Shown here: one piece after another, positions 47,816 through 60,327 of the stretch
Layout of the letters: each line of letters opens with the position of its first letter
Position numbering within the stretch: position 1 is the stretch's first letter
Assembly (NCBI GenBank): GCA_902524895.1
Contig: CABZFH010000003.1
Coordinates: 71,433 to 135,432 of the forward strand
Length of the DNA: 64,000 nucleotides
Direction of reading: 5' to 3'
Source: an uncultured Alphaproteobacteria bacterium
GTDB lineage: Bacteria > Pseudomonadota > Alphaproteobacteria > Methylaequorales > Methylaequoraceae
Translations under genes and position numbers: made by a program
Notes under the pieces: generated by a model
The model's database searches: none
Told to the model about the DNA's origin: nothing
What the model saw: only the letters and a program-made list of their open reading frames with translations

Positions 47816-48088
47816 TATTTTTATTAGTCAGATTATATAAAACATATTTTTACATAAAATAAACAATATTAAACAATATTCTTTAATTTTTTTATTTTTC
47901 TAATATTATCTAACTGCCAGTAATGGCTATGGCAATAAATGTTTGATTTGTGATCTGAGACGGACCCGGGGGCGGTACCCGGCGCCTCCACCAAAATTTT
48001 GTGGGGGCGAAATAGGATCGACGTGCATGGGAATCTTCAAAACTTTGCTCGGTGTAGTTCCACCGTTATCGGACTAAAATAAATATGT

Positions 48089-48121
48089 GCTAACGATAAT
48101 GAAATGGCACTCGCTGCTTAA
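48089..48121 (+). other. tmRNA tag reading frame: ANDNEMALAA-stop
   Basis: gct aac gat aat gaa atg gca ctc gct gct taa. The ANDN start and hydrophobic LAA end are typical of proteolysis tags. Confidence 0.8.
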
Positions 48122-48150
48122 TTAAGTAAGCGCTGCAATGAGCGCGGGGC

Positions 48151-48312
48151 AACAGAAGTCTCATCGGCAAGGGCGGGCAATTGTTCGCCCTTGTTTGTTT
48201 TAGGGAGACTCACAAAGGGTTTCAGAGGATTCACTCTTCAACAAACAAGGGAAACAATAGTGCAATAAGTTGCACACACTCTGCACACACTCTGCACACA
48301 CTTTTGTTTGTT
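48151..48312 (+). repeat. ssrA-3'-end repeat copy 1 (functional gene end plus right arm)
   Basis: aacagaagtctcatcggcaagggcgggcaattgttcgcccttgtttgttttagggagactcacaaagggtttcagagg.. followed by 3x tgcacacac at 11-nt spacing (48271, 48282, 48293). Ends in cttttgtttgtt. Confidence 0.9.
48168..48201 (+). terminator. hairpin plus T-rich tail at the end of the ssrA coding piece
   Basis: caagggcg (48168-75) pairs with cgcccttg (48186-93) across a 10-nt loop, followed by tttgtttt. Confidence 0.6.
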
Positions 48313-48323
48313 CAATATATGTT

Positions 48324-48722
48324 CTAGATACTGACTTTGTTTGAATAAATCTTATTCCAAGTTTCAATGGTATCCTTTGGTAAAAAATTAGGTAAAAACT
48401 TTATGCCTAGTTCCTTTAGTCTTAGACAAGTTCCTACCAAATCAAGTTCAACTTTTTTATTACACTTTCGTTTATGAGCAGAATATATATTTTGGTCTTT
48501 ATCAAGAAAATCTGGTGTTAGTGCAAAATTTACAATTCCAATTTTAAAACCAATTATATGAGACGATTCAAGAGGATTATCTTTTGTAGGTGGTTGAAAA
48601 CATACTTCACAAATTTGCTTTTTCTTTTTTTTTATATATCTGACTGGCATTCTCTTTATGAATGTTTGCCATTCACTTTTAGTCAAAAAAACTCTGTTAT
48701 TAAATCCAATGTTTGTTTTCAT
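48324..48722 (-). CDS. hypothetical protein with weak HNH-nuclease-like motif
   Basis: 132 aa; ICEVC(x14)SSHIIGF ... NIYSAHKRKCN gives a CxxC..H..N..H-like spacing. First ORF after repeat copy 1. The family call is tentative. Confidence 0.4.
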   Translation of the reverse strand: MKTNIGFNNRVFLTKSEWQTFIKRMPVRYIKKKKKQICEVCFQPPTKDNPLESSHIIGFKIGIVNFALTPDFLDKDQNIYSAHKRKCNKKVELDLVGTCLRLKELGIKFLPNFLPKDTIETWNKIYSNKVSI

Positions 48723-48952
48723 ATTAAAAAAAAGACCAGTCTAATCAGTTCCAAAAATTATATTCGAAAAGTCCAGTGTTTTCTTTGTTTTTTTTTTTAT
48801 ATTTTTAATAGTCCAAAACTAGAGTAATAGACTGACTAAAATAATGATTTTTTGATTTTCTTACAGACACCATACGAAACATGACCGTTTGAATTGTATT
48901 CTTCTTTACAAAAATACTTGTGACATTGATTCTGTGTTTATTTAAAAAGTTC

Positions 48953-48981
48953 CAGTAGAAAGTTTTTTAAAATTTCTACTG
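48953..48981 (-). terminator. 9-bp perfect inverted repeat overlapping the stop of 48976..49509
   Basis: cagtagaaa (48953-61) pairs with tttctactg (48973-81). There is no clean T-tail, so function is uncertain. Confidence 0.3.
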
Positions 48982-49509
48982 ATTATAAAGAAGCAAAAAA
49001 AACAATATTAAATATCCAACCAAGACATATCTCTTCATGAGAAAAGTATCCTTTTCCTTACTATTTGATATTTTGAAGGGATCAACGACCCAAGATTTCT
49101 GAAATAAAAATTTCAATGTTGGACCTAAATAAAAAAAAAAAATTGGAAATATTAGAAGTAATAATTCTAAAAAACCATATGCTAAAAACCCTCCTTCAAT
49201 AAGCAAAACCAGTAGTGATGTCAAAGAGAAATAAACAAAAACAAAATGTAAAAAATCAATCAAGAAATAAGAGTAATTTCTGTGTTTGATGTTGACGAAT
49301 TTTTTAATATTACTCCATGGAAAAACTGCCATTTTACCCCATAAACAATATTTAATAAATGAGAATAAAAATATTAAAGGAATTAGAATAATCGCTAATT
49401 CTTTATCAACACCATCATGTTGAGTTGATACTTTTAAAAGATAAATAGGGAAGATAAAAAAGTAAATATAATGAAATACTATTAAAAGTCTGTTTATGAA
49501 ATTTGCCAT
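48976..49509 (-). CDS. polytopic membrane protein, hypothetical
   Basis: 177 aa with about 5 hydrophobic segments. Confidence 0.5.
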   Translation of the reverse strand: MANFINRLLIVFHYIYFFIFPIYLLKVSTQHDGVDKELAIILIPLIFLFSFIKYCLWGKMAVFPWSNIKKFVNIKHRNYSYFLIDFLHFVFVYFSLTSLLVLLIEGGFLAYGFLELLLLIFPIFFFYLGPTLKFLFQKSWVVDPFKISNSKEKDTFLMKRYVLVGYLILFFLLLYNQ

Positions 49510-49606
49510 AATTAAACTCTTTTAACCTTAAAATGACTTCATAGTACTCTCATGTTATTATTTTTTAAATATAAAAACTATTTTTAAGAATTATAAATTT
49601 GATAAA

Positions 49607-50125
49607 ATGAAATTATTTGAAACAGGAAATCCATTAGTTTTAGTATTGGATTTATTACACAAATATAAAAAATTTATTTGGATAAGAAAGTATTTGTACT
49701 TTCTAGAAAGATGTTTTAATGAAAGAATTTCAATAAAAAATTACACCATTATGTCTGATGGACAAAAACTCCTATGCATTACACCTTTTCTTCATGGAAA
49801 AAAACACGGTTTGCAGAAAGTATATTATGTGTTTAAAGACCATGAGAGACTTCCTGATGGCGTATATCTTTGGAAACATACTAATTTCTTTCAAGGTAAA
49901 AAACATGGTCAGGAAATTGTTTTTGGAGACAACGAAGAAATAAATTGTCTATATAATTATGATTACGGAACACAATATGGACTTCAAGAACTCTATCATC
50001 CAGATACTGGCAATCTTTTTGTGAGTTATTTTTCAAATTACTACGGTGGAGAAAAATGGAGTAATTGGTATGACGAAAATGGGAAGTTTATAAGAAGTAC
50101 TGGTCTTTCTAATTTTTGGGAATAA
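49607..50125 (+). CDS. MORN-repeat (YwqK-like) protein
   Basis: Repeated G-KKHG-x-(E/K)-x-(V/I)-(Y/F) units: HGKKHGLQKVYY, QGKKHGQEIVF, GTQYGLQELYH. Confidence 0.55.
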   Translation: MKLFETGNPLVLVLDLLHKYKKFIWIRKYLYFLERCFNERISIKNYTIMSDGQKLLCITPFLHGKKHGLQKVYYVFKDHERLPDGVYLWKHTNFFQGKKHGQEIVFGDNEEINCLYNYDYGTQYGLQELYHPDTGNLFVSYFSNYYGGEKWSNWYDENGKFIRSTGLSNFWE

Positions 50126-50168
50126 CAATGAAATTTTTTCATTGATTTAACTTATAGATTCGTCTCAA

Positions 50169-51185
50169 TCACCATTTTTTGTCACATCCGATCATCCATT
50201 TTTCAGAAGGATATGTTATTTTCATATCATTTGTATTTCCGTAATCTTCTATAAATATGTTACATTCTTTTTCATTACTGAACTCATTATTTATATATTT
50301 TTTATATTTACTTTGTCCCTCTTCACAAGGATCATTAATTTTTAATGGGTTATCCTTGTCTAAAAGGTTTGGGTTATTTAAAACACCATCAACATAATTA
50401 CAAAAGAAGGGTTTATATTCTTTTGATGAACCGGAGAAAAATTTATAACCAACAAAAATTATAAAACATAAACCAAAACCTAACCTCCTCCAACCACTAT
50501 CGTTGTCTTGAGAAACGGTTAGAGTCTCTTTAGATTCCATAAATCCTTTTTTTCTTATAAATTTTTCTTTGGAAATCAACTCCCTTGAAGGTTTGGGGTC
50601 CCTCCACTTCCAAGATCGATTAAAACTTTTTTCTTTATAAACAATTTGATCATTAATAAAGAATGAAAATTTTACATTATACTTATTTACTCGATAAACT
50701 TTTAATTTTTCTTTTCTATTTAAATTACATGAGAGTATAGGGTTTTTACTCCAATCTTCGTACTTATCTTCCTCAAGATACCTCTTTGAAGAATCAATTT
50801 TCTTCTTAGATTCCATAAATCCCTTTTTTTTTGGTTGGGAGTAATAACCAAAAAAAATAACCTCATCTTTTAATTTATTATCAACATAGAGTTGAAAAAT
50901 AGTTTCATGATATTCTGAGAAAATTAGTTTAAATTGATCAATTCTTTTTTTGGGTATACTAGGACAGGATAACATTATCTGATAAGTTTCAGAACCTTCT
51001 GAAGACTTGTAATGAAATTTCAAATCTTGAATAGATTTTTTCATACAAAGATCATCAATGATCCAAATATAAGAATGTCTATTAAAATCACCGTTGTAAA
51101 ATCTCTCATATTTATCCTATAACTTTACCAATTTCACTTCAAAAAACACAAACAAACAAATTAGTGTAAGTAATAGTTTTTTCAT
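50169..51185 (-). pseudogene. secreted protein gene interrupted by an in-frame TAG (51117-51119)
   Basis: Track ORF 50169..51044 continues upstream in the same frame through a single TAG to an ATG at 51185. That upstream part encodes a signal-peptide-like MKKLLLTLICLFVFFEV. There is also an internal approx. 17-nt DNA repeat (50530 and 50806, 276 nt apart) that encodes KKGFMESK twice. Confidence 0.5.
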
Positions 51186-51733
51186 CAATCAACTTTTACT
51201 GTTTCATAGTGACCACCTAGAGTCACACGAAAACCATAACCGTATTCTTTTTTGAGTAACTCGTCTGTCCTCTTATTTCCCTCTTCTATCGTTATGTAAT
51301 CATTAAGAACTAGGAAATCTATTTCCTCATATTTTTTCTCAAATACTTTTGTTCTCTCTTCATCGTAATCTAAAATATTCTTTCCAGAATATTTTCTATT
51401 TGTCGTTGGTTCATAATAAAAATTTATTGGTTTTAATCCAAATAGTCTTCCAATGGTTAACCTGAATAATTGTTCAATTGTGTCATAAACTAATTTAAAC
51501 AAATCAGATTTATAAGAACTAAACATAATGAAAATCATAAAGAAAAAATTAATGACAAAATAAAACTTTAGATAATCAACAAATGATATTTGAAAAATTA
51601 AACCAAAGATTAAGGAATATAGTAATGAATATGCCCATAATTTTGAGTATGTGGTTAATAAAATCAACCAATGATTAAATGGATATGGTCTACTAAAAAT
51701 ATATCTATAAAATTTGAAGTGCAGTCTTTTCAT
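51185..51733 (-). CDS. membrane protein (N-terminal TMs, soluble C-terminus), hypothetical
   Basis: 182-aa ORF. Its stop overlaps the downstream ATG (TGATG). Confidence 0.5.
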   Translation of the reverse strand: MKRLHFKFYRYIFSRPYPFNHWLILLTTYSKLWAYSLLYSLIFGLIFQISFVDYLKFYFVINFFFMIFIMFSSYKSDLFKLVYDTIEQLFRLTIGRLFGLKPINFYYEPTTNRKYSGKNILDYDEERTKVFEKKYEEIDFLVLNDYITIEEGNKRTDELLKKEYGYGFRVTLGGHYETVKVD

Positions 51734-51804
51734 ACAAAAATTATATTAGTAAAGAGTTGAATATCCAATCGTTTTCTTCTTGAAATTCGACACACAGAAG
51801 AAGT

Positions 51805-52072
51805 AACCAATTACATAAATCGTGCAGAAATGCACCCAATTTGCACACACTTTTGCACACACTTTTTGAGAAAGTCCGAGAAACAGTACACTTTAGAGCA
51901 TATGCAGGAGAACAGAAGTCTCATCGGCAAGGGCGGGCAATTGTTCGCCCTTGTTTGTTTTAGGGAGACTCACAAAGGGTTTCAGAGGTTTCACTCAACA
52001 GAAAATAAGGGAAAAAATAGTGCGTTATAATGCACGCAGTCTGCACGCAGTTTGCACGCAGTTTTGGGTGTT
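51805..52072 (+). repeat. repeat copy 2 (left arm, core, right arm)
   Basis: Core 51911-51988 is identical to 48151-48228 (78 nt). The left arm has 2x tgcacacac (51842, 51854). The right arm has 3x tgcacgcag at 11-nt spacing (52031, 52042, 52053). cgcagt-type motifs continue to about 52118. Confidence 0.9.
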
Positions 52073-52129
52073 ATTTTTTTGTTCGCAGTCACTCCCCTAA
52101 ACTGCATCGCACCCACAAGCAATAAGTAT

Positions 52130-52984
52130 CTAATCAACTTTTGTCAGTGCATTTTGTGGTTGAGTGTACTCGTCAATAATTTCATTTAACCACGAACTTT
52201 TGGTAAGTAAAAATTCTTTTTCTTTTGGTACTGCCAAAATATTAAAAGTTGCTACATTAGCATAATAATTATTATCATTAATAAAATGATTGTTTGGGTT
52301 ATACAACATAGTTGCTGCCCAAAATGGTTTATAGTTAATTTTTAAAAGATGTTTGTTCAAATAATTTGGGTATGCCCGATGATTTTCAATCCAGATAATT
52401 GGTTTAAACTTATTAATAAAATCTTTTGCTCCTTTTAAAACACTTAATTCCATTAACTCAACATCTATTTTTAAGAAATTACATTTTTTTAAATTTAAAA
52501 AGTTATTAAGAGTTAAAGTCTTTATTTTATTTTTTTTTGTTCCCTTAATTTTGGCACAATATGAATTATCATAATCTTCTTTCAAACCAATTCCTCCAAA
52601 ATTTCCTGGTTGGGAATAATCAAAATCATTTAATTCTAGAGTTCTATTTTTACCACCAATAGCATTATTGAAAATTTGAACATTATTTAATTCATTACAT
52701 TTAATATTTTCTTTTAGAAGGTTAAAAATAAATTTTTGGGGTTCAAAAGCATATACTTTTCCATTAGAACCAACCTTTTTTGCAAATGGTACAGAAAAAC
52801 ATCCAATATTCGCACCTATGTCAAAAATTACGTCTCCCTCATTTATAAATTTTAATATTGTCTTTAATTCTAGTTCTGAATATTCTCCATATTCTCTGAT
52901 TGACATTCCAATAAATTCATCAAAATGACAAAAATGAAATATACCATGTTTTGCATCAACTTTACCAATAATATCCTTATTCAT
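52130..52984 (-). CDS. FkbM-family methyltransferase
   Basis: VIFDIGANIGCFSVPFAKKVGSNGKVYAFEPQ, the FkbM signature. Confidence 0.8.
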   Translation of the reverse strand: MNKDIIGKVDAKHGIFHFCHFDEFIGMSIREYGEYSELELKTILKFINEGDVIFDIGANIGCFSVPFAKKVGSNGKVYAFEPQKFIFNLLKENIKCNELNNVQIFNNAIGGKNRTLELNDFDYSQPGNFGGIGLKEDYDNSYCAKIKGTKKNKIKTLTLNNFLNLKKCNFLKIDVELMELSVLKGAKDFINKFKPIIWIENHRAYPNYLNKHLLKINYKPFWAATMLYNPNNHFINDNNYYANVATFNILAVPKEKEFLLTKSSWLNEIIDEYTQPQNALTKVD

Positions 52985-53084
52985 ATTTATTAACTAGCAA
53001 TTTCTATTCCATTAATAAATTGAGTAGATAAAGTGTGTTAGTAAATTTACAATCCAAACTCATATTGAGTTACAGAGGAGCAGA

Positions 53085-53339
53085 ATGGATTCAGAATCTT
53101 ATTCATCTCCAATACACCTTGGCATATATTCAAAGGTTTCATTGATTCGTGATGAATTCATTAACACAGAAAATAGTAAACTATTTGGAAGTTGTGAAAA
53201 TGAATACGAAGTTGAAAATACTTTTGAAGCATTTTGGAATAGAACGAATGGCGATTACAGTAATTCTGCTATCGTTAAAGTTCTAAAAGTAGAAAAAGTA
53301 ACAGAAAATATAGTCCAACTTAAACGAATTTCCTCATAA
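53085..53339 (+). CDS. hypothetical 84-aa acidic protein
   Basis: AGGAG lies 5 nt upstream of the ATG. The stop abuts repeat copy 3. Confidence 0.4.
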   Translation: MDSESYSSPIHLGIYSKVSLIRDEFINTENSKLFGSCENEYEVENTFEAFWNRTNGDYSNSAIVKVLKVEKVTENIVQLKRISS

Positions 53340-53584
53340 CCAATTACATAAACCGTGCAGAAATGCACCCAATTTGCACACACTTTTGCACACACTTTTT
53401 GAGAAAGTCCGAGAAACAGTACACTTTAGAGCATATGCAGGAGAACAGAAGTCTCATCGGCAAGGGCGGGCAATTGTTCGCCCTTGTTTGTTTTAGGGAG
53501 ACTCACAAAGGGTTTTAGAGGATTTACTCTTCAACAAACAAGGGAAAATGAAACGAGTTAAGTGCAACGCACTTTTGCTTTTGC
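53338..53584 (+). repeat. repeat copy 3
   Basis: Left arm 53338-53445 differs from 51805-51912 at 1 of 108 nt. The core is identical to copy 1 for 72 nt, then shows 2 mismatches. Confidence 0.9.
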
Positions 53585-53643
53585 ATTTTCATTAGAGTGA
53601 TATCCAGGAAATTTGAAAAACTAAGAAGATGTAAATTGTATAT

Positions 53644-54417
53644 TTAGTACAAAAAAGTATAACCACTAAAAATATTAAAGTCGTCCTCTTTACCTAATAA
53701 CCTATGATTTAAACCTATGTCAAATATAAGATCTTTACTTAGTGAGTAAGTTGCACCAAATCCAATTATGTTTGATAACTTGTAATCCACATCATTACTT
53801 TTGATAGCAATAATTTCTGAATAAAGACCCAATGAATTTTGTATATTTATTCCTAATAGACCTGAAATAATAAATTCAATATCAAAATTTTGTTCATCAT
53901 CATCATACACATAATCTGTTTCAAACATGAAATCTAAATTTAGTGTATCGGATATATTAGTAGAAAATGGAAAAATAATTCCTCCTTCTACTTTGTTATT
54001 GCCAATCCTATTGTCAGCAGTAGGTAATTTCATGTAAGGCATTAATCCAAATGCAGATTTCCCGTCTTCATTTACCCAAATTTTTTTTTTTATACTAATT
54101 TGAAAATCTCCATAACTATCATTTATTTTTTTGTTAGACTTTTGAGTAATATATGGATCAAAAACTAACTGAAGATCAATTGAATTATTTAAACCAATTC
54201 TAAAATTAAATGGATGTATGGACCAAGTATTCACATCACTATTTTGAGAATAGTCAATAATACTGCTTTCTAACTGTTTTACTCCTATATCTAATGTATA
54301 TCCACTTTCGGTGAAAGTCGTGGCATAAACTTTATTATAATCAATAAAAAAATTTATAAAAATTAAAATTAAGATAGAAAGTTTTTTAATAAGAAAGTTT
54401 TGTTTTTTTATAAACAT
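53644..54417 (-). CDS. outer-membrane beta-barrel protein (MetA-pathway/'transporter'-like family, tentative)
   Basis: Signal peptide, alternating amphipathic strands, C-terminal ..GYTFLY aromatic terminus. Confidence 0.6.
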   Translation of the reverse strand: MFIKKQNFLIKKLSILILIFINFFIDYNKVYATTFTESGYTLDIGVKQLESSIIDYSQNSDVNTWSIHPFNFRIGLNNSIDLQLVFDPYITQKSNKKINDSYGDFQISIKKKIWVNEDGKSAFGLMPYMKLPTADNRIGNNKVEGGIIFPFSTNISDTLNLDFMFETDYVYDDDEQNFDIEFIISGLLGINIQNSLGLYSEIIAIKSNDVDYKLSNIIGFGATYSLSKDLIFDIGLNHRLLGKEDDFNIFSGYTFLY

Positions 54418-54733
54418 TTAATAAATAGATTTATTTTTTATTCAAATTAGGAAGAAATTAATTTTGGTACAAATTTAAAGAATTTAAATTTTATTTTAGT
54501 TTATTTTTTTTTTATGTTTTTACTCAGCAAGTTGATCAAGTAAATAAATCCAATTGATTTAGGTAGATAAATTACATGGGGAATATTAATTAAATAAATT
54601 TCAAATTACACAAATTTAATCTATTTCGCACAACTTTCTCTCTTCTTATTTTTCAATATTTATATAAATCTTCATAGTATCGGTTCAAACATTATAACTT
54701 ATGTTACTGTGCTTGAACCAATCGTAATTCATA

Positions 54734-54895
54734 TTATTCTTTTTTTTCTTCAGTTGATTCTTCTTTTTTATCTTCAGAAGACTCTTCAGTTGTTTCTTCC
54801 GCAACATCTTTTTTTTCTCCGTGCCCGTCTGCTTTTACGAATTCTGAGGAAAATAAGAATGCTAAAGAAAAAAATAAAATGTACAAATATTTCAT
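54734..54895 (-). CDS. possible 53-aa secreted acidic peptide
   Basis: MKYLYILFFSLAFLFSSEFVKA then DGHGEKKDVAEETTEESSEDKKEESTEEKKE: a signal peptide plus an E/K/S-rich tail. Below the track threshold. More plausible than the low-complexity plus-strand ORF 54709..54948. Confidence 0.4.
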   Translation of the reverse strand: MKYLYILFFSLAFLFSSEFVKADGHGEKKDVAEETTEESSEDKKEESTEEKKE

Positions 54896-55006
54896 ATATA
54901 TCTCCAAAAAAGTTATTATTTAAGTTAGCAAATATTAAATATTTTTAAAAATTTATATTATTTATATCTGTCATAATTTCAAATTATAATGACCATACTT
55001 ACTACG

Positions 55007-55262
55007 ATGAAAAGTAGTCCGTGCAGAAGTCGTACAAAAAAAAACACTGATTTTCTACCCGCTTTGCGACCCACGTTTTAAAAAACCCCTAGTTATAAAG
55101 GGTTTAAGACCATACACCGAGACACAGAAGTCTCATCGGCGAGGGCGGACAATTGTTCGCACTTTTTTGCTTTAAACGTCCTCACAAAGGGTTTCAGAGG
55201 ATTCACTCTTCAACAAATAAGGGAAACAATAATTGAATAAGTAGCAGACACTTTTGTTTGTT
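55007..55262 (+). repeat. repeat copy 4 (diverged)
   Basis: atgaaaagtagtccgtgcagaagtcgt .. caccgagacacagaagtctcatcggcgagggcggacaattgttcgcac .. ttcagaggattcactcttcaacaaataaggg .. gcagacacttttgtttgtt. Confidence 0.85.
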
Positions 55263-55279
55263 ATTTATTTTCTGTTATA

Positions 55280-55803
55280 TTGAAGATTATGAAAATTGAA
55301 ATTGCGTACCTTCATTGTGGTGATTATCTTCTCAAAACTCTTAGAAAAGAAATTCAAGAGGTTTTCAAGATAATAGATATCTTGAAATGGGAAGTGAACT
55401 ATTCCTCGAAAAACAAATCGCATGAAACATTATACAACAAGAAATTTAAGATGAATTTAAAAAGTTTACATGGGAACCCAAACCATTTTTGAATAAGGAA
55501 CCAAAGACTAATTGTAGAATTTAGAAAAAATTCAGTATTTGTTAAAATTCAATTTAATAATAGTGCTAATATTTATAGAGATTTTTATAAGTTTCAACAT
55601 GGTCATAGAAATGGATTATTATCGTTATCAATTTTAATTGTACCAACTAATCAATGTCTTTTTTTTCAAGAAGAGTTTAAAGTGTTAGTTATATGGCAGA
55701 GTATAATTTAGCAAAAAAATATTTTACTTTTTTTAAAATTCAAGTGCCAACCATAATAATTGGTCTTCTTCCAAAAAATTATTCTAAACAGTTTAAAATA
55801 TAA
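55280..55803 (+). pseudogene. BglII-like type II restriction endonuclease, decayed (one in-frame TGA plus one frameshift)
   Basis: MKIEIAYLHCGDYLLKTLRKEIQEVF resembles the BglII N-terminus (MKIDITDYNHADEIL..WKEIEETL). After TGA at 55490 the same frame reads ..IVEFRKNSVFVKIQFNNSANIYRDFYKF (compare VEVQFSN). After a -1 shift near 55685 it reads ..YMAEYNLAKKYFTFFKIQVPTIIIGLLP (compare LAEYNVFDVPIRLVGL). Confidence 0.55.
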
Positions 55804-55945
55804 TATCGTTTAGGAGTTGATTTTACTTAATTTAATTTTTTGATTTCAGGATAGTCTAAACTAAAGTTATAGACTGATATGTAAATTTGTTCATATTTTA
55901 TTAATCCTAATATTGGTAAGGTTAAAATCCAAAATAATTTGGGGT

Positions 55946-55991
55946 ATAGTAACGACCTACCGTTCTGGAATAGTAACGACCTAATCGTTCT
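55946..55991 (+). promoter_or_regulatory. two 21-22-nt direct repeats, each with an internal dyad (operator/iteron-like)
   Basis: atagtaacgacctaccgttct (55946-66) and atagtaacgacctaatcgttct (55970-91), period 24 nt. Each contains AACG(A)..(T)CGTT. They lie about 70 nt upstream of the first small ORF. Confidence 0.35.
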
Positions 55992-56062
55992 ATCTCTGAC
56001 AGTAAAAGTTTCAATACATTCAAATTTTCTTGGTTAATAATAATTAACAAAGGAGAAATTAA

Positions 56063-56227
56063 ATGCCAAAGAAACAAACTAGTTATCTTGAAAAAGCAAC
56101 TAATAAATTCATTAAGGCGTTGCGAAGTAAAGGGATAAAAGTGCAAACTTTAGAATCTGTAGATAATGGAAAATCAAAAATTACTTTAGTTCCAAGAATT
56201 AAAATCAAGGAGGGAAACAATGTTTAA
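56063..56227 (+). CDS. small ORF D2, 54 aa (MPKKQTSYLEKATNKFIKALRSKGIKVQTLESVDNGKSKITLVPRIKIKEGNNV)
   Basis: AAAGGAG lies 7 nt upstream of the ATG. First of three coupled ORFs. Below the track threshold. Confidence 0.45.
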   Translation: MPKKQTSYLEKATNKFIKALRSKGIKVQTLESVDNGKSKITLVPRIKIKEGNNV

Positions 56228-56336
56228 AATCATTTGGAAAAAACTTAAAGAGGATGACCCCATCTTCAAAACTGGATTTATAATCTCAAATCCAAAACTA
56301 AACTTTAATACAAAACGAAAAGGAGATAAAAAATGA
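56220..56336 (+). CDS. small ORF D3, 38 aa (MFKIIWKKLKEDDPIFKTGFIISNPKLNFNTKRKGDKK)
   Basis: AAGGAGGG lies 5 nt upstream. The start overlaps the D2 stop by 8 nt. Confidence 0.35.
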   Translation: MFKIIWKKLKEDDPIFKTGFIISNPKLNFNTKRKGDKK

Positions 56337-56467
56337 AAAAATTATCTTTTTTCTCTATTCCTAGAAATAAAACAAGGAGAGAAACTCTTGAAGTAATAAA
56401 AAATGCTCTTGTTGCCAATGGGTGGAAATTCGTTGAAAAATCAGAAAGGAGTAAGAACAAACCTTGA
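56333..56467 (+). CDS. small ORF D4, 44 aa (MKKLSFFSIPRNKTRRETLEVIKNALVANGWKFVEKSERSKNKP)
   Basis: AAAGGAG lies 7 nt upstream. ATGA overlap with D3. The stop sits exactly at the left edge of repeat copy 5. Confidence 0.4.
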   Translation: MKKLSFFSIPRNKTRRETLEVIKNALVANGWKFVEKSERSKNKP

Positions 56468-56702
56468 GTCCATTCAGAAGTCGTGCAGAAAATGTACTCA
56501 ATTTGCAGACACTTTTTGAGTAATACCCAGAAACAGTGGGTTTTAGACAATACACCGAGACACTGAAGTCTCATCGGCAGGGGCGGGCAAATTGTTCGCC
56601 CTTGTTTGTTTAAGGTACACCTACATGGGGGCTCAGAGGATTGACTCTTCAACAAATAAAGGAGACAATAGTGCAATATGTTGCACACACTTTTTGTTTG
56701 TT
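56466..56702 (+). repeat. repeat copy 5 (diverged)
   Basis: cagaagtcgtgcag .. tttgcagacactttttgag .. caccgagacactgaagtctcatcggcaggggcgggcaaattgttcgcccttgtttgttt .. tgcacacactttttgtttgtt. Confidence 0.85.
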
Positions 56703-56749
56703 CTATTAATTTTTATTGAAATTGAATTCATATTTATTAGTTAATATAT

Positions 56750-56998
56750 ATGAGATTTTATATACGTTACGTCCTCTTCTTTATTGCCACTTTTATTTTG
56801 AACCCTTACAATCAAGATAAGCAAGAAATGACTTATTCATCAAATTTAAATAAAGCAATATATTCAGGTTTTTTACAATCGCAAAATAGAGTATTTGTTT
56901 CAGAGAACATGACCCTTTCATGTAAATTTAAGAGTATGAATAGAAAATCTGTTAAAATTCCTAAATTAAAAGATAAAACCAATAAAAGTAAAATTTAA
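56750..56998 (+). CDS. hypothetical 82-aa protein with hydrophobic N-terminus
   Basis: MRFYIRYVLFFIATFILNP.. The only sizeable ORF of cassette E. Confidence 0.35.
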   Translation: MRFYIRYVLFFIATFILNPYNQDKQEMTYSSNLNKAIYSGFLQSQNRVFVSENMTLSCKFKSMNRKSVKIPKLKDKTNKSKI

Positions 56999-57096
56999 TT
57001 TTTTATTAAATCTTTGAGACATATCAAATTAGTTACAATTATTTTTGCTAAGTGTTCTAGTTTTAATAAATCCTTCTAGGTGTAGTTCATAAAAAA

Positions 57097-57180
57097 TCAA
57101 TAACTGTTATTTAAATCATCAGACGATATAACTTCAAAATACACAAACAAAAAAATAAACATGAGTAATAGTTTTTTCAT
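57097..57180 (-). pseudogene. remnant of a signal-peptide-encoding gene start (27 codons)
   Basis: MKKLLLMFIFLFVYFEVISSDD.. is homologous to the N-terminus MKKLLLTLICLFVFFEV at 51185. The downstream frame is broken by stops. Confidence 0.35.
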
Positions 57181-57193
57181 AATTTATCGTAGC

Positions 57194-57425
57194 TGAAAAA
57201 TAGTCCGTGCAGAAGTCGTGCATAAATTATCCTCAATTTGCAGACACTTTTGCAAACACTTTTTGAGGAAATCTCAGAAACAGTCGGTCTTAGCTGATAC
57301 ACCGAGACACAGAAATCTCATCGGCAAGGTCGGGAAAATTGTTCGCCCTTATTTGTTTTAGGTAGACTCACGAAGGGGGGTCAGAGAATTTACTCTTCAA
57401 CAGATAACTAAAAATAAAAGGAAAT
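57194..57425 (+). repeat. repeat copy 6 (diverged)
   Basis: tagtccgtgcagaagtcgtgca .. tttgcagacacttttgcaaacactttttgagg .. caccgagacacagaaatctcatcggcaaggtcgggaaaattgttcgcccttatttgtttt. Confidence 0.8.
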
Positions 57426-57539
57426 GAGCAATATTTTTTTAATAACACAATATTTACAACTACATAATCAAGATTATTATACAAATAACTGTTTCGATAA
57501 TTTCAAATCTGAATAACATATCCTAAATGATTTTTTTTG

Positions 57540-57947
57540 TTAGTAACAAAAACCAGTTCTTGAAAAGTAACAAGAAGGGATTCCTCTAACGTAATGATTA
57601 TTCGAGTAGTAATAGTAATTTGACAAATCATTATTTCTCATTGTGGTGAATTTTGATTCTTCAAAATCTATTAAATTATAATATCTAAACATTGCTTCAT
57701 TATCTGAGATTTCATTGTTCTCTAACATAATTTGAAGTCTCTTCATAACATCTACGAATCTAGTATTCTCATTTCGACAGTTGGTAGTATTATTACATTC
57801 TTTTTGAATCTCTTTAAATGCACACGATGAAAGATCAGAAAATTCACTAAATTTTTTTTCACAGTCAACAAAATAAGTGTAAGGATATTTACTTGATACA
57901 CAAGAAGTGATAATAAACAAACTAAAAATTAAAAAGTATTTCATCAA
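57540..57947 (-). CDS. Cys-containing lipoprotein, hypothetical
   Basis: MMKYFLIFSLFIITSC lipobox-like signal. 8 further Cys in the mature part. Confidence 0.55.
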   Translation of the reverse strand: MMKYFLIFSLFIITSCVSSKYPYTYFVDCEKKFSEFSDLSSCAFKEIQKECNNTTNCRNENTRFVDVMKRLQIMLENNEISDNEAMFRYYNLIDFEESKFTTMRNNDLSNYYYYSNNHYVRGIPSCYFSRTGFCY

Positions 57948-58000
57948 TTATGTTTAATAATAATTTTTGTATTTCACAAAATATAAAATAATCCTACACA

Positions 58001-58212
58001 ATGAAAAGTAGTCTGTACAGAAATCGTGGAAAAAAAAATACTCATTTACAATGCACTTATTAGATAGTCCTAGATATGGGTGTCTGTATATTAACCTAGA
58101 TACAGAAGTCTCATTGGTAAGGAAGAGCGATAGCTCACCTTTGTTTGTTTTAAGTTAACTAAAGAAGTGTTTCAGAGGATTCAATTTTAAATTAATAAAA
58201 GAAATAAGGAAA
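58001..58212 (+). repeat. repeat copy 7 (most degenerate, distal end of array)
   Basis: atgaaaagtagtctgtacagaaatcgtgg .. tacagaagtctcattggtaaggaagagcgatagctcacctttgtttgtttt .. gtttcagaggattcaa. The hairpin sequence has changed but a hairpin is still possible. Confidence 0.75.
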
Positions 58213-58286
58213 AGTCTAGAAAATTTATATAAAAATTTCCAATTGATACTAGATACTGTTATGGTAAAAAAGACTGAAAGTTTCTA

Positions 58287-58427
58287 ATGATTAATACTGA
58301 AAATATTTGTTGTAAATACACTTGTTGCGCAGACGGTTGTTGTAGTGATGGTTGCGAAACAGGCGAGTGCAGTAACACATGTTGTAAAGATGGATGTTGT
58401 GCAGATGCTGAGAACTGTTGCGAATAG
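58287..58427 (+). CDS. 46-aa cysteine-rich (14 Cys) metallothionein-like peptide
   Basis: MINTENICCKYTCCADGCCSDGCETGECSNTCCKDGCCADAENCCE. Below the track threshold. Preceded by an 8-codon uORF (58261-58287) whose TAA overlaps the ATG (TAATG). Confidence 0.5.
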   Translation: MINTENICCKYTCCADGCCSDGCETGECSNTCCKDGCCADAENCCE

Positions 58428-58562
58428 ATAAAGGCTTGTTTTTAATCTATTGCAATCAATAATTTGATTACGTCTTTATTCTTATTTTATTCTCATTATA
58501 ATATTTTTGCTCTTAATTTCTTAAAACTTAGAATTATCACTATATATAATTCCAAATTCTTG

Positions 58563-58844
58563 TTAAATATCAAACCATAAGAAAATATAATTTCCGGTGA
58601 CCATTAGTGTGCCAAAGAATACAAAACAATAGAGTGCGCCAAATAAAAAGAAGTAAATTCCTGAAATCAGAAAACGAATGAAAGAGGACATAGAGCTTCC
58701 AAGTAATTCAAGTCTAAGGCTCATAATAAATGGGTTTAGTCTGTGTTTAGTTTTTTTATTCAACCAGTAAACAGGATAAGTAAATATCCAGAACATAGGA
58801 AGGAATAATAATATATATAGTACTGTAATTCCTAGTAGATCCAT
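58563..58844 (-). CDS. small membrane protein (3 TM), hypothetical
   Basis: 93-aa hydrophobic ORF. Confidence 0.45.
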   Translation of the reverse strand: MDLLGITVLYILLFLPMFWIFTYPVYWLNKKTKHRLNPFIMSLRLELLGSSMSSFIRFLISGIYFFLFGALYCFVFFGTLMVTGNYIFLWFDI

Positions 58845-59006
58845 ATAATTAACATAACTTAAATATAACTTTTAGTTAAAACAAAATCTTTTAAAATTTA
58901 TAATTATTTGATAATGAATTTTTGTAGATATTTAATTTAAAAATTGTAAAGTAAAATTATAATATTTTAAAGTTCAAACCTCGGGAAAATTAAAATCTAA
59001 GCAGAA

Positions 59007-59177
59007 ATGATGAGCGATAAATTTAAAGAAAGTATTCATCAAGAATTTGAAAGATTTATGAGAGATGAAATGGACGATAATGAGAAAAAAAATTACCAAA
59101 ATACATCAAGATTTAAGAATATTATTAAAAGAATCACTAAAGTGTTAATTGAAAAAAGCTTAAAAAAAAATATTTAA
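59007..59177 (+). CDS. possible 56-aa charged protein (MMSDKFKESIHQEFERFMRDEMDDNEKKNY..)
   Basis: Below the track threshold. No family and no obvious SD. Confidence 0.25.
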   Translation: MMSDKFKESIHQEFERFMRDEMDDNEKKNYQNTSRFKNIIKRITKVLIEKSLKKNI

Positions 59178-59234
59178 ACTTTTGACTCTTTCAATTCCGC
59201 TTTGCTATTTTTAAATTACACTAGATATATAATT

Positions 59235-59543
59235 TTAATGAAGCGTAACTTTTTCTTTTGTATCTTCGTTATTATTTAAAAAATTTTGACAGGGACTATG
59301 CATATTCACATATTCCTGTGCTGAGTGGACAATTCTATGAGATTCTCTTATCAATCTTGAAAGCAAATATTTACTGATTATAAGCTTATTTTTTTTATTT
59401 GATTTCATCAGTTTTTGAAAAATATAATTGTACATCATATGTTTCTCATTCTTCTGCTCAAAAACTTGATTAAACATAACAAGCATTAAGTTTTTAAAAT
59501 TCTCATCGTTCATATTATTAATGATAATAATTATTAATTTCAT
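59235..59543 (-). CDS. hypothetical protein
   Basis: 102-aa ORF. An internal start at MNDENF is possible. No motif recognised with confidence. Confidence 0.4.
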   Translation of the reverse strand: MKLIIIIINNMNDENFKNLMLVMFNQVFEQKNEKHMMYNYIFQKLMKSNKKNKLIISKYLLSRLIRESHRIVHSAQEYVNMHSPCQNFLNNNEDTKEKVTLH

Positions 59544-59569
59544 TTCAAGATCAATTTTATATTTTTTAT

Positions 59570-60082: not shown

Positions 60083-60085
60083 AAT

Positions 60086-60115
60086 ATAAAAAAAAAGGGG
60101 AACTTAATCCCCTTT
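60086..60115 (-). terminator. intrinsic terminator for leftward transcription
   Basis: aaagggga (60094-101) pairs with tccccttt (60108-115) across a 6-nt loop. On the minus strand the hairpin is followed by a T9 run. Confidence 0.55.
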
Positions 60116-60145
60116 CCGTATTTAAATCACACATCTCAATATTAT

Positions 60146-60220: not shown

Positions 60221-60327
60221 CAGACCACCTCCTTTATATTGGTTAAAACTTATTTTAATTTAGTATTAAATTTAAAAAAGTCAAAAATAATATTGCATAA
60301 ACATAAAACTTTTTTTTATTGATTAAC

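What the first reader, a model, noticed from the sequence alone, without database searches (positions are those of the whole stretch)
48151..58212. Seven direct ssrA-3'-end repeats split about 10 kb into six integrase-less mini-cassettes
Immediately after the tmRNA gene, its last approx. 50 nt plus about 110 nt of flank (aacagaagtctcatcggcaagggcgggcaattgttcgcccttgtttgttttagggagactcacaaagggtttcagagg...) recurs in the same orientation near 51.9, 53.4, 55.1, 56.6, 57.3 and 58.1 kb. Copies 1 and 2 are identical over 78 nt, and copy 3 over 72 nt. Copies 2-7 are 210-270 nt long because each carries an extra conserved left arm (..gtgcagaa..tttgcacacactttt..tttttgag..cagaaacagt..) that is absent upstream of copy 1. 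The intervening segments are only 0.5-3.5 kb and hold 1-5 small ORFs each. I see no tyrosine or serine recombinase-like ORF in any segment or anywhere in the 64 kb. Tandem islands at tRNA/tmRNA genes normally each bring an integrase. Here the layout is tiny cargo, a long structured repeat, uniform polarity and one chromosomal anchor. That resembles an integron-like cassette platform, or satellites mobilised in trans. I cannot assign it to a described element family from the sequence.
Basis: partly seen in the sequence, partly recalled or inferred. Interest (0 to 1): 0.9.

Follow-up and report, generated by a model that had tools for sequence, protein, structure and literature searches.

The report
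Integrase-less gene cassette array at ssrA
Downstream of the tmRNA gene of a streamlined marine alphaproteobacterium (TMED127 relatives), small gene cassettes are separated by about 240-nt attP-like sites but have no integrase; related genomes carry them in different numbers and orders, so this is a known kind of island in an unusually minimal form.

Summary
A two-piece tmRNA gene ends at 48166, and its 3' end plus terminator and flank recurs six times in direct orientation up to 58.2 kb.

The layout matches serial site-specific integration:
- The first copy is B-O-P' (attL).
- Internal copies are P-O-P'.
- In two related genomes the last copy is P-O-B'.

Identity with ssrA becomes perfect at ACAGAA, inside a dyad (GAGAC-ACAGAA-GTCTC) that is almost invariant in about 40 independent junctions.

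No recombinase gene or remnant was found in the 64 kb, in three related genomes or in about 40 metagenomic contigs.

Comparative data show cassette behaviour:
- Near-identical cassettes have different neighbours, with breakpoints at the core edges.
- A shared pool of small genes appears in different orders, nearly always in the same orientation.

It is not an integron: there is no intI, no attC-like fold and cargo orientation is mixed. The closest precedents are the Dehalococcoides ssrA islands that lack integration modules ("cis-mobilizable elements") and the tRNA-repeat cassettes of streamlined marine bacteria.

I call it a new variant of a known kind. The most likely mechanism is a tyrosine integrase acting in trans. 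This integrase was not found, and RecA-driven exchange between the repeats remains a serious rival.

The parts
47878..48166 (+). ssrA, a two-piece (permuted) alphaproteobacterial tmRNA gene. It is the chromosomal anchor and integration target.
   Evidence: Rfam RF01849 at 183.6 bits and RF04321 at 135.2 bits. thyX, mrp/apbC and hflK lie upstream.
48152..48305 (+). Copy 1, attL-type (B-O-P'). The core O (48152-48228) is the last 15 nt of ssrA, the terminator hairpin and the run to ..AAAGGGTTTCAGAGG. The P' arm (48229-48305) has three TGCACACACT units phased at 11 nt.
   Evidence: No P arm lies upstream; the ssrA body is there instead.
48306..51803 (.). Cassette 1, probably composite. It has five ORFs (132, 177, 172, 291 and 182 aa), none with a family assignment.
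   Evidence: In L133-L135 the first gene is 98-99.7% identical but has a P arm on its left, and in L134/L135 the flank diverges beyond about 48907-48913.
51804..52072 (+). Copy 2, an internal junction (P-O-P'). The P' arm has three TGCACGCAGT units.
52073..53336 (.). Cassette 2: an FkbM-family methyltransferase (52130-52984, - strand) and an 84-aa ORF (53085-53339, + strand).
   Evidence: Pfam PF05050 at 1.4e-17, TIGR01444 and phrog_8156. The same cassette is 97.8% identical in Tara contig L130, where different cassettes follow.
53337..53590 (+). Copy 3, an internal junction (P-O-P'). Its P+O part is 96% identical to copy 2 over 212 nt.
53591..55012 (.). Cassette 3: a MetA-like outer-membrane protein (53644-54417, - strand) and the small secreted acidic protein X57 (54734-54907, - strand).
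   Evidence: PF13557 at 1.4e-11. The X segment is about 80% identical to L021 8533-8161 and also occurs in L022, L104 and L111, in other cassette contexts.
55013..55256 (+). Copy 4, an internal junction (P-O-P').
55257..56465 (.). Cassette 4: no intact gene, with a remnant of a BglII-type restriction endonuclease.
   Evidence: PF09195 at E 1e-5 on a six-frame fragment. Positions 55780-55877 are 85% identical to L021 9455-9356.
56466..56694 (+). Copy 5, an internal junction (P-O-P') with a single 12-nt unit in P.
56695..57197 (.). Cassette 5: one 82-aa ORF (56750-56998, + strand).
   Evidence: A 68% identical homologue sits between repeats in L111.
57198..57439 (+). Copy 6, an internal junction (P-O-P').
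57440..58005 (.). Cassette 6: a 135-aa lipoprotein-like ORF (57540-57947, - strand).
   Evidence: Homologues at 56-63% identity in L102, L107, L111, L115 and L116 occupy a different position relative to anchor93 and cys46.
58006..58219 (+). Copy 7, the last recognisable junction and the most diverged (P-O plus a degenerate P' or B').
   Evidence: 141-146 bits, against 216-238 for the internal copies.
58287..59177 (.). Older cassettes whose junctions have eroded in this genome: Cys-rich 46-aa peptide (58287-58427, + strand), 93-aa membrane protein 'anchor93' (58563-58844, - strand) and a 56-aa ORF (59007-59177, + strand).
   Evidence: anchor93 is flanked by repeat copies in L102, L111 and L115 and is followed by a pristine P-O in L114. 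L021 and L022 keep a 37-nt P-arm vestige there. orf56 lies between repeat copies in L130. cys46 directly follows a junction in L104.

Best explanation
This is an additive genomic island anchored at the 3' end of ssrA. It was built by repeated site-specific (Campbell-type) insertion of small circular cassettes of 0.5-3.5 kb and 1-5 genes.

**Proposed cassette and insertion cycle**
- Each cassette carries an attP-like site of about 240 nt with three parts. The P arm is about 110 nt. The core O is about 77 nt (the last 15 nt of ssrA, its terminator and about 30 nt more). The P' arm is about 60-90 nt.
- Strand exchange most likely occurs in or next to ACAGAA, the spacer of the dyad GAGAC-ACAGAA-GTCTC, within the last 15 nt of ssrA.
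- The incoming cassette supplies a fresh ssrA 3' end and terminator, so the essential gene stays intact.
- Each new arrival at attL pushes older cassettes away from ssrA.
- This leaves B-O-P' at ssrA, P-O-P' between cassettes and P-O-B' at the far end.
- Distal junctions then erode and cassettes fuse or become fixed.

**Recombinase.** The cassettes encode no recombinase. I infer that one acts in trans, probably a heterobivalent tyrosine integrase that reads the phased arm motifs. It would be encoded by a rare or transient helper element or elsewhere in the genome. RecA-dependent exchange between the long, nearly identical cores probably adds to the shuffling.

**Cargo.** The cargo is typical flexible-genome material: restriction-modification and other defence genes, methyltransferases, envelope proteins and small secreted peptides.

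**Shown versus inferred.**
- Shown: the anatomy, the absence of a recombinase, and the cassette polymorphism and permutation.
- Inferred: the class of enzyme, its action in trans, the crossover position and the circular intermediates.
For: **Anatomy**
- attL copies are B-O-P', internal copies are P-O-P', and the last copies in L021 and L022 switch after ..TTTCAG(A/T)G into a shared B' that is the 3' end of the next gene.
- The P arm still carries a diverged copy of the ssrA 3' region (ACACCGAGAC against ssrA ACACCGGGCA). Identity becomes perfect at ACAGAA. The dyad is almost invariant in about 40 junctions (majority-base frequency 0.97).
- The arms carry phased direct repeats: GTGCAGAA twice, a 12-nt unit once or twice in P, and a GTGCA-N6-TGCAC palindrome plus 1-3 units at 11-nt phasing in P'.
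- Conservation is non-monotonic. It is 0.90 in the most distal 25 nt of P and 0.69-0.76 in between.
- The terminator stem shows compensatory CG to GC changes in 5 junction copies.

**Cassette behaviour**
- Arrays of 3, 3 and 6 cassettes with unrelated cargo occur in L021, L022 and the window, between ssrA and shared genes.
- Cassette 2 is 97.8% identical in L130. Similarity stops at about the 3' edge of the core of copy 3 (window 53547, about 25 nt into P'), and other cassettes follow.
- The first gene of cassette 1 is 98-99.7% identical in L133-L135, where a P arm replaces the ssrA body. In L134 and L135 identity to the window stops exactly at 48152.
- The same gene families occur in different orders, nearly all in the same orientation.
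- The O-P' of window copy 2 is 97% identical to the attL of L022, although the two ssrA genes are only about 81% identical.

**No recombinase**
- None in the window.
- None in the cassettes of the relatives.
- None in 41 representative ORFs of at least 170 aa from the 19 largest of the 31 junction contigs.
Against: - No integrase, helper element, circular junction or empty site was found. Seven viral-contig scans and a BLAST of cultured phages were negative. No contig has circular topology.
- The genome-collection and metagenome scans were capped, so the rest of the host genomes could not be searched.
- The arm motifs vary between junctions, and may co-vary within a cassette (p about 0.06). 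That is awkward for a single trans-acting integrase reading conserved arm sites.
- Cores share 72-100 nt of perfect identity, which is enough for RecA. Every breakpoint observed is equally compatible with homologous recombination.
- Streamlined marine genomes are reported to lack mobile-element genes generally (PMC7771536, PMC11796062).
Confidence: 0.5

Rival explanations
1. The array is driven by homology and no dedicated recombinase acts today. An ancient integrative element left the first P-O-P' units. Since then the 210-250-nt repeats have served as portable homology. RecA deletes, duplicates, circularises and re-inserts cassettes, and incorporates incoming DNA flanked by repeats. Gene conversion and hitch-hiking keep the units similar.
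For: - Cores share 72-100 nt of perfect identity between copies.
- Copies 2 and 3 are 96% identical over 212 nt, which suggests conversion within the array.
- No recombinase was found anywhere.
- All breakpoints fall inside or at the edge of the shared core, as homologous recombination would also predict.
- Contigs break at the repeats.
- The literature attributes such cassettes in streamlined marine bacteria to recombination hot spots with no identifiable mobile elements (PMC7771536).
Against: - Conservation is non-monotonic. There is a 90%-conserved block 105 nt from the core and a nearly invariant dyad exactly at the ssrA/P boundary.
- The phased arm repeats look like protein-binding sites.
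- Junction units are as similar between genus-level relatives as within one genome. Concerted evolution alone would not give that.
- The attL, attP-like and attR asymmetry is preserved.
Confidence: 0.3
2. The cassettes are decayed remnants of conventional self-integrating islands, prophages or tycheposon-like elements. Each would originally have brought its own integrase and later lost it by deletion. The array would then be a graveyard and no longer mobile.
For: - Tandem tDNA islands normally arise this way. Prochlorococcus islands contain degenerate elements, fragmented integrases and scattered partial tRNAs (10.1101/2020.12.28.424599).
- Cassette 4 is clearly decaying.
- Distal junctions erode.
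- Cassette 1 looks like a fusion of units.
Against: - No integrase gene or fragment appears in about 60 cassettes across about 40 loci, although six frames of the island were scanned.
- The att units remain full-length and well conserved while the supposed integrases have vanished without trace.
- Near-identical cassettes (98-100%) sit in different contexts, so the movement is recent.
- Many cassettes are under 1.5 kb, with one small intact gene.
Confidence: 0.12
3. It is an integron-type or Xer/dif-type cassette system, with single-stranded attC-like folding sites or dif mimics processed by IntI or by the host XerCD.
For: The resemblance is superficial: small, mostly promoter-poor cassettes in a uniformly polarised array next to a fixed anchor, with no recombinase inside the cassettes.
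Against: - There is no intI or any tyrosine recombinase next to the array or in the 64 kb.
- The units do not fold better than shuffles on either strand.
- There is no covariation beyond the terminator.
- Cargo orientation is mixed. It is mostly antisense to ssrA in the window and sense in L021 and L022.
- No dif-like GCATAA-N6-TTATGT core lies in any unit, and matches in the window are at chance level.
Confidence: 0.03

Closest known systems
[quoted passage not shown] 2011, PMC3146451)
   Same: - Tandem islands lie directly downstream of the single-copy ssrA gene.
[quoted passage not shown]
- Number and content vary between strains.
- About half of them (15 of 31) lack any integrase and were proposed to rely on neighbouring elements.
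- More distal regions look like old, fixed islands.
   Different: - In Dehalococcoides half of the islands carry a conserved integration module with a CcrB-like serine recombinase (DsiB). Here none of about 60 cassettes does.
- Those islands are about 10-30 kb with a 20-bp repeat and only about 15 bp of extra conservation. Here the cassettes are 0.5-3.5 kb with a 240-nt unit that has long arms, which is tyrosine-integrase-style architecture.
- The insertion point differs: the T-loop there, and the last 15 nt of the coding piece of a two-piece tmRNA here.
Additive flexible genomic islands at tRNA genes of streamlined aquatic bacteria: Ca. Actinomarinales fGI1 (PMC7771536), Methylophilaceae fGI-2 (PMC10872708), SAR11 gMED islands (PMC11796062)
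   Same: - Small gene cassettes are marked by direct repeats of part of a tRNA or tmRNA gene.
- The genomes have few or no recognisable mobile-element genes.
- Cassettes are exchanged between species or genera.
- Cargo is envelope modification, restriction-modification and transport genes.
   Different: - Those reports describe short tRNA-fragment repeats (about 20 nt, or over 90% identical partial tRNAs). They do not describe conserved attP-like arms, attL/attP/attR asymmetry or a core dyad.
- The target here is ssrA in the order TMED127, for which I found no published description.
Tycheposons and the tRNA/tmRNA-anchored islands of Prochlorococcus (Hackl et al., 10.1101/2020.12.28.424599)
   Same: - Islands grow at tRNA and tmRNA genes by successive site-specific integrations, with the newest element next to the tRNA.
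- Partial tRNA repeats separate the elements.
- Most islands contain no intact element.
- The hosts are streamlined oceanic bacteria.
   Different: - Tycheposons are defined by their own tyrosine (or serine) recombinase and a replication module. Neither occurs here.
- The elements here are far smaller.
- Every junction here keeps a complete attP-like unit rather than a bare partial tRNA.
Integron cassette arrays
   Same: The cassettes are promoter-poor units of one to a few genes without a recombinase, arranged in a polarised array at a fixed platform, with insertion next to the anchor. The order is permuted between genomes.
   Different: - There is no intI and no attI.
- The recombination units are double-strand attP-like sites with arms and a core, not folded attC hairpins.
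- Cargo orientation is not uniform.
- The anchor is an essential RNA gene whose 3' end each cassette restores.

Membership tests
tDNA-integrating genomic island (Islander/Williams definition) | Integration into a tRNA or tmRNA gene, with the gene regenerated and a displaced 3' fragment marking the far end as a direct repeat | tested here: met
   ssrA is intact. The 3'-terminal 15 nt plus the terminator are repeated six times in direct orientation.
tDNA-integrating genomic island (Islander/Williams definition) | An integrase gene (usually a tyrosine integrase) inside the island | tested here: not met
   No Phage_integrase, resolvase or other recombinase appears in any island ORF or six-frame fragment, or anywhere in the 64 kb.
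Cis-mobilizable element (CIME) / accretion-mobilisation | The element is flanked by att sites of an integrative element family but has no recombination or transfer genes | tested here: met
   B-O-P', P-O-P' and P-O-B' sites flank units that have no recombinase.
Cis-mobilizable element (CIME) / accretion-mobilisation | A related autonomous element exists, with an integrase and the same att site, that can integrate next to the unit and co-excise with it | tested here: not met
   No such element was found in the window, 3 related genomes, 31 junction contigs or IMG/VR and cultured phages.
Cis-mobilizable element (CIME) / accretion-mobilisation | Excision or transfer demonstrated when the helper integrase is present | not testable with these tools
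   This needs experiments or read-level data. The assembled contigs show no circular topology.
Integron | An intI tyrosine recombinase gene with attI and a Pc promoter next to the array | tested here: not met
   The neighbours are thyX, mrp and hflK upstream and cargo downstream. There is no recombinase in the 64 kb.
Integron | attC sites: imperfect palindromes that fold as single strands | tested here: not met
   Both strands of the units fold no better than shuffles, with z between +0.6 and -1.7. The consensus structure contains only the terminator and a 4-bp dyad.
Integron | Cassette genes are co-oriented and expressed from the platform promoter | tested here: not met
   In the window 8 of 11 cargo ORFs are antisense to ssrA. 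In L021 and L022 the cargo is sense.
Tycheposon | Its own tyrosine or large serine recombinase at the tRNA-proximal end, plus a replication module (primase or helicase) | tested here: not met
   The first gene next to attL is a 132-aa ORF with no family hit. There is no recombinase, primase or replicative helicase in the cassettes.
Tycheposon | Site-specific integration at one of a few tRNA genes or the tmRNA gene, forming additive islands | tested here: met
   The ssrA target and the tandem architecture.
Dehalococcoides-type ssrA-GI | A conserved integration module with the DsiA and DsiB serine recombinases overlapping attL | tested here: not met
   No resolvase or serine-recombinase domain was found in any scanned protein.
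Xer-dependent elements (IMEX / pdif modules) | Units bounded by dif-like sites of about 28 bp (XerC arm, 6-8-bp spacer, XerD arm) | tested here: not met
   The GCATAA-N6-TTATGT core gives 13 matches in the window against 14.2 expected by chance. None lies in the seven units. The true dif site of this clade is unknown.

The most novel reading that the evidence does not exclude
TMED127 bacteria, and perhaps other streamlined marine bacteria, may run a dedicated cassette-capture platform at ssrA that is functionally analogous to an integron but mechanistically distinct. Minimal circular cassettes would consist only of cargo plus a 240-nt attP-type site. A recombinase encoded nowhere in the array would insert, excise and reshuffle them, and each cassette might carry its own arm-motif 'flavour' matched between P and P'. 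This would explain how genomes with almost no mobile-element genes keep a rapidly exchanging pool of defence and envelope genes.
Probability: 0.25. Interest if true: 0.8.

Novelty: new variant of a known kind. Interest (0 to 1): 0.6.

Why it matters
Streamlined oceanic bacteria such as SAR11, Prochlorococcus, OM43, Actinomarinales and TMED127 have large flexible gene pools but almost no recognisable mobile-element genes. How their small cassettes move is an open question.

This locus offers an unusually clean and testable case:
- It has a complete, well-conserved attP-like unit with a candidate crossover dyad and phased arm motifs.
- There are dozens of independent junctions.
- Near-identical cassettes sit in different contexts.
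- Cassette order is permuted between genomes.
- No recombinase is present.

The locus defines exact sequences to look for in long reads (circular junctions, empty sites, a helper attP). It also gives substrates for testing a candidate integrase against a RecA-only mechanism.

The cargo is restriction-modification systems, a Dnd-restriction-like helicase-nuclease, SRA-domain proteins, methyltransferases and envelope proteins. This suggests the array is a main site of phage-defence and surface variation in an abundant but little-studied group of marine methylotrophs.

Tried and rejected
1. **Viral helper or vector.**
   - The 16-mer core gave 18 IMG/VR hits, all chance matches with no extension.
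   - Patterns for the P-O junction, the terminator, the P arm and the P' arm gave 0 hits.
   - blastn of a whole unit against 50,697 phage records gave no match.
   - The cargo proteins FkbM284 and g132 have no relatives on viral contigs.
2. **Integrase remnants.** The six-frame fragments of the island gave none.
3. **attC-like or RNA structure.** Folds are not better than shuffles. A candidate P-arm hairpin (CCCC-N8-GGGG) was rejected, with 57.5% paired and no excess over shuffles or slid controls.
4. **Circular cassettes.** No contig has terminal direct redundancy.
5. **Xer/dif.** There is no dif-like core in the units.
6. **A SAR11 host.** I assumed this at first because of the 28% GC and the two-piece tmRNA. 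The closest genomes belong to the order TMED127.
7. **Matching arm motifs.** The match between the P' and P motifs of the same cassette is only suggestive (6 of 18 perfect against 8% for random pairs, p about 0.06, not independent).
8. **Other lineages.** Within 10 kb of ssrA, no comparable arrays were seen among 22 other loci with a detectable ssrA (Pelagibacteraceae, HIMB59-like and other Alphaproteobacteria). One locus, L026, has a 27-nt extra fragment.
9. **Failed or empty look-ups.**
   - The listing of cluster members timed out.
   - Exact look-ups of the window's ThyX, anchor93 and OMP257 found nothing on record.

Full report
**1. What is there**

The window has about 28% G+C. Rfam finds an alphaproteobacterial two-piece tmRNA gene at 47878-48166 on the + strand (183.6 bits), which ARAGORN missed. 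Core genes lie upstream: hflC, hflK, mrp/apbC and thyX.

The 16-mer ACAGAAGTCTCATCGG starts 15 nt before the end of ssrA. It occurs seven times with at most one mismatch, all on the + strand, at 48152, 51912, 53445, 55124, 56562, 57309 and 58102. Shuffles give zero. Repeat finding, alignment and a profile search confirm seven units and no others in the 64 kb.

**2. Anatomy of the unit**

I aligned 16 copies from four genomes and 35 distinct junction copies. They show three parts.

- **Core O, about 77 nt.** It contains the last 15 nt of ssrA, the ssrA intrinsic terminator (CAAGGGCGG-GCAATTGT-TCGCCCTTG followed by a T-run), and about 30 nt ending in AAAGGGTTTCAGAGG.
- **Left arm P, about 110 nt.** It is present in every copy except the one attached to ssrA.
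- **Right arm P', about 60-90 nt.**

Each first copy is B-O-P', where B is the ssrA body. Internal copies are P-O-P'. In L021 and L022 the last copy leaves the family after TTTCAG(A/T)G and continues into a shared flank, the 3' end of the next gene, giving P-O-B'. This is the pattern expected from successive Campbell-type insertions of elements carrying P-O-P' into the ssrA 3' end.

The core-proximal end of P is itself a diverged copy of the ssrA 3' region. Junctions read ACACCGAGAC|ACAGAA|GTCTCATCGG. The ssrA genes of the relatives read ACACCGGGCA|ACAGAA|GTCTCATCGG. Identity therefore becomes perfect at ACAGAA. The junction version also creates the dyad GAGAC-N6-GTCTC, which is almost invariant in about 40 junctions (majority-base frequency 0.97).

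An element that must regenerate a tRNA-like gene needs identity only 3' of the crossover (established knowledge: Williams 2002, as cited in 10.1101/2020.12.28.424599). I therefore infer that exchange happens in or beside ACAGAA, flanked by inverted core-type sites.

The arms carry phased short repeats:
- Two GTGCAGAA about one helical turn apart at the far end of P.
- One or two copies of a 12-nt unit (TTTGCAnACACT) in P.
- In P', a GTGCA-N6-TGCAC palindrome followed by one to three of the same kind of unit at 11-nt phasing.

Conservation along the unit is not monotonic. The distal 25 nt of P is 90% conserved, the stretch between it and the core is 69-76%, and the dyad and terminator are 95-97%. 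The junction set was selected on the P/O border only, so the distal block is not an ascertainment artefact.

The unit has no significant global fold. RNAalifold recovers only the dyad and the terminator, and the terminator has one pair with five compensatory CG/GC changes. A candidate P-arm hairpin failed the covariation test.

**3. No recombinase**

The Pfam scans found nothing resembling a tyrosine or serine recombinase, transposase or Xer protein. They covered:
- the island ORFs and flanks;
- every non-overlapping ORF of at least 100 aa from 1 to 44.8 kb;
- all other stop-to-stop fragments of at least 30 aa in six frames of 48.16-59.24 kb.

The only hit among the fragments is a BglII-type endonuclease remnant in the otherwise gene-less fourth segment.

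**4. Cargo in the window**

| Cassette | Content |
|---|---|
| 1 | five ORFs with no family |
| 2 | FkbM-family methyltransferase and an 84-aa ORF |
| 3 | MetA-like outer-membrane protein and a small secreted acidic protein (X57) |
| 4 | decayed endonuclease |
| 5 | 82-aa ORF |
| 6 | 135-aa lipoprotein-like ORF |

**5. Relatives**

In the nearest of these loci, and in many others, ssrA lies directly beside thyX.

The nearest are L019 (AG-895-B20), L020 (CM1_5m.P40), L021 (AG-903-D15), L022 (AG-892-F10) and L023. AG-892-F10 and CM1_5m.P40 belong to the order TMED127 ('Methylaequorales'). These are streamlined marine methylotrophs of about 1.5 Mb (10.1101/2025.06.11.659106). The host is therefore a TMED127 relative, not SAR11 as I first assumed.

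- L021 and L022 each have four copies of the same unit, giving three cassettes.
- L019 has one copy.
- L020 and L023 end at the repeat.
- The cargo of the relatives is unrelated to the window's. L021 has a Tsp45I endonuclease with an N6/N4 methylase, and DoxX. L022 has a PhoD-like phosphatase. L019 has a methyltransferase. None has a recombinase.
- Among 22 other alphaproteobacterial loci with a detectable ssrA, none has an array within 10 kb.

**6. Metagenomes**

A junction-specific pattern, which cannot match a plain ssrA gene, hit 31 marine contigs. Many of them end in the repeat.

I scanned 41 representative ORFs of at least 170 aa from the 19 largest of these contigs. They include:
- a C5 methylase with an MvaI/BcnI endonuclease;
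- an SRA-domain protein;
- many SAM and FkbM methyltransferases;
- acyl- and glycosyltransferases;
- radical-SAM enzymes;
- an HTH regulator;
- a 1619-aa Dnd-restriction-like helicase/nuclease in a 37% G+C single-gene cassette.

Again there is no recombinase.

**7. Evidence that the cassettes move**

- **(a) Cassette 2.** The exact FkbM protein occurs on Tara contigs. L130 matches the window at 97.8% over 1.64 kb, from the core of copy 2 through P and O of copy 3. It then diverges at about 53547, and other cassettes follow.
- **(b) Cassette 1.** The exact 132-aa protein occurs on nine contigs. In L133-L135 (98-99.7% identical) a P arm replaces the ssrA body to its left. In L134 and L135 the match to the window stops exactly at 48152, the left edge of the core. 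In those strains another cassette sits between ssrA and this one, as expected if newcomers insert at attL.
- **(c) Permuted order.** An ordered map of 18 loci shows a common pool of small genes: anchor93, cys46, p135, g105, X57, p82, g143b, g171, UPF0114, MT278 and MetA-like OMPs. They lie between ssrA and a conserved FUR-ABC-transporter block. Nearly all keep the same orientation relative to ssrA (orf56 is reversed in three loci), but order and combination differ. Two examples:
  - window: p82 [J] p135 [J] cys46 anchor93
  - L111: p82 [part] g105 anchor93 [P-O] cys46 p135

  The gene after the last junction also differs between genomes (anchor93, g143b, UPF0114, g171, cys46 or a MetA-like OMP).
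- **(d) The gene beyond copy 7.** The 93-aa gene I first took for the distal anchor is flanked by units in L102, L111 and L115. L114 has a pristine P-O beyond it. L021 and L022 retain only a 37-nt vestige of P there. Distal junctions therefore erode and old cassettes become fixed.
- **(e) Cross-genome similarity.** Junction units are as similar between these genus-level relatives as within a genome. The O-P' of window copy 2 is 97% identical to the attL of L022, while the ssrA genes are about 81% identical and ThyX 67%.

**8. Mechanism**

The anatomy, the dyad at the homology boundary, the phased and selectively conserved arm blocks and the cassette dynamics fit a heterobivalent tyrosine-integrase system acting on integrase-less cassettes. 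These would be cis- or trans-mobilisable units in the sense of CIMEs.

This is an inference. I found no integrase, no helper attP in IMG/VR or cultured phages and no circular contigs.

The main rival is RecA-mediated exchange using the long, nearly identical cores. It predicts the same breakpoints and preserved orientation, and it fits genomes poor in mobile-element genes. It explains less well the invariant dyad, the non-monotonic conservation and the similarity of units across genera.

Simple decay of conventional islands is unlikely, given zero integrase traces in about 60 cassettes and the near-identical cassettes found in different contexts. Integron and Xer models fail their defining tests.

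**9. One unexplained feature**

The 12-nt arm unit differs between junctions but is identical between its tandem copies. The P' motif at the start of a cassette tends to equal the P motif at its end: 6 of 18 pairs match perfectly, against 1 of 46 for the two arms of one junction and 8% for random pairs. The test gives p of about 0.06 and the cases are not independent. If this is real, it means either cassette-specific recognition or frequent conversion within cassette circles.

**10. Comparison with what is known, and verdict**

Tandem islands at ssrA bounded by 3'-end repeats, half of them lacking integration genes and proposed to be CIMEs, are described for Dehalococcoides (PMC3146451). Small cassettes marked by tRNA-fragment repeats in genomes without recognisable mobile elements are described for Ca. 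Actinomarinales (PMC7771536), Methylophilaceae (PMC10872708) and SAR11 (PMC11796062). Tycheposon islands in Prochlorococcus grow in the same proximal-insertion manner (10.1101/2020.12.28.424599).

What is different here:
- the cassettes are very small;
- recombinases are completely absent across dozens of loci;
- every junction preserves a full 240-nt attP-like unit;
- cassette order is permuted between genomes;
- the host order is TMED127, for which I found no such description.

I rate it a new variant of a known kind, with interest 0.6.

Noticed in passing
window 55600-55900 (cassette 4); L021 9356-9455: The gene-less fourth segment holds a fragment of a BglII-type restriction endonuclease (PF09195, E 1e-5). 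About 100 nt of it is 85% identical to a stretch in cassette 1 of L021. This looks like a decaying restriction-modification cassette shared across genera.
   Followed up: partly
window 58287-58427 (+): A 46-aa peptide that is very rich in cysteine (MINTENICCKYTCCADGCCSDGCETGECSNTCCKDGCCADAENCCE). It is conserved at 62-78% in L019, L021, L022, L104, L105, L111 and L115, always in the ssrA island but at different positions. It may be a metallothionein-like or RiPP-like peptide.
   Followed up: partly
window 54734-54907 (-); L021 8240-8434; L022 8491-8664; L101, L103, L104, L111: A small secreted acidic protein (signal peptide followed by an E/K/D/S-rich tail) recurs as cargo in many arrays. It sits next to P' in L021 and L022 but next to P in the window, which suggests that cassettes fuse when a junction is lost.
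   Followed up: partly
alignment A3 columns 61-83 and the P' tails; e.g. window 48271-48305, 51842-51866, 52031-52065: The 12-nt arm units are identical within an arm but differ between junctions. They tend to match between the P' and P arms of the same cassette (6 of 18 against 8% for random pairs, p about 0.06). This is unexplained.
   Followed up: partly
window 51804-52015 vs 53337-53548: Copies 2 and 3 are 96% identical over 212 nt (P+O), far more than other pairs. In the near-identical cassette 2 of L130, the copy-3 P arm carries a different unit (GCACGCAGT) that matches the cassette's own P' arm. This suggests recent gene conversion within the window's array.
   Followed up: partly
window 48324-48722 and 52130-52984: Two cargo proteins (g132 and the FkbM methyltransferase) occur with 100% identical sequence on several Tara, ENA and Logan contigs. 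The window's core ThyX and the 93-aa protein are not on record at all. The cargo may be more widespread than this host backbone, or this may be a sampling effect.
   Followed up: no
L103 689-5548 (metagenome contig MDTB01183851.1): A single-gene cassette between two units encodes a 1619-aa helicase/nuclease resembling Dnd-system restriction enzymes. Its G+C is 37%, against about 28% for the host. This points to foreign origin and a defence role.
   Followed up: partly
window 13645-19141: A cluster of asparagine synthase, two GT1 glycosyltransferases, one GT2 and a GT9 heptosyltransferase, plus another GT2 at 3099-4007. It looks like an LPS or envelope glycosylation region, a typical replacement-type variable region in marine bacteria.
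   Followed up: no
window 58845-64000: Downstream of the last repeat the genes remain island-like: UPF0114, a second MetA-like OMP, two methyltransferases including another FkbM, and small ORFs. The FUR-ABC-transporter block that closes the island in the relatives is not reached by 64 kb, so the island is longer than 16 kb here.
   Followed up: partly
window 10585-10658 (tRNA-Thr ggt) and 4688-4762 (tRNA-Phe): The two tRNA genes show no sign of repeated 3' fragments or cassettes. The one arm-like 13-mer near tRNA-Thr (10748) has 2 mismatches and is consistent with chance. A dicarboxylate symporter follows directly.
   Followed up: partly
L021 8847-9284: The ssrA-proximal cassette of AG-903-D15 encodes a DoxX-family membrane protein. 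The TMED127 transcriptome paper lists a DoxX-like protein among the most highly transcribed genes of AG-892-F10. Whether that gene lies in an ssrA cassette was not checked.
   Followed up: no
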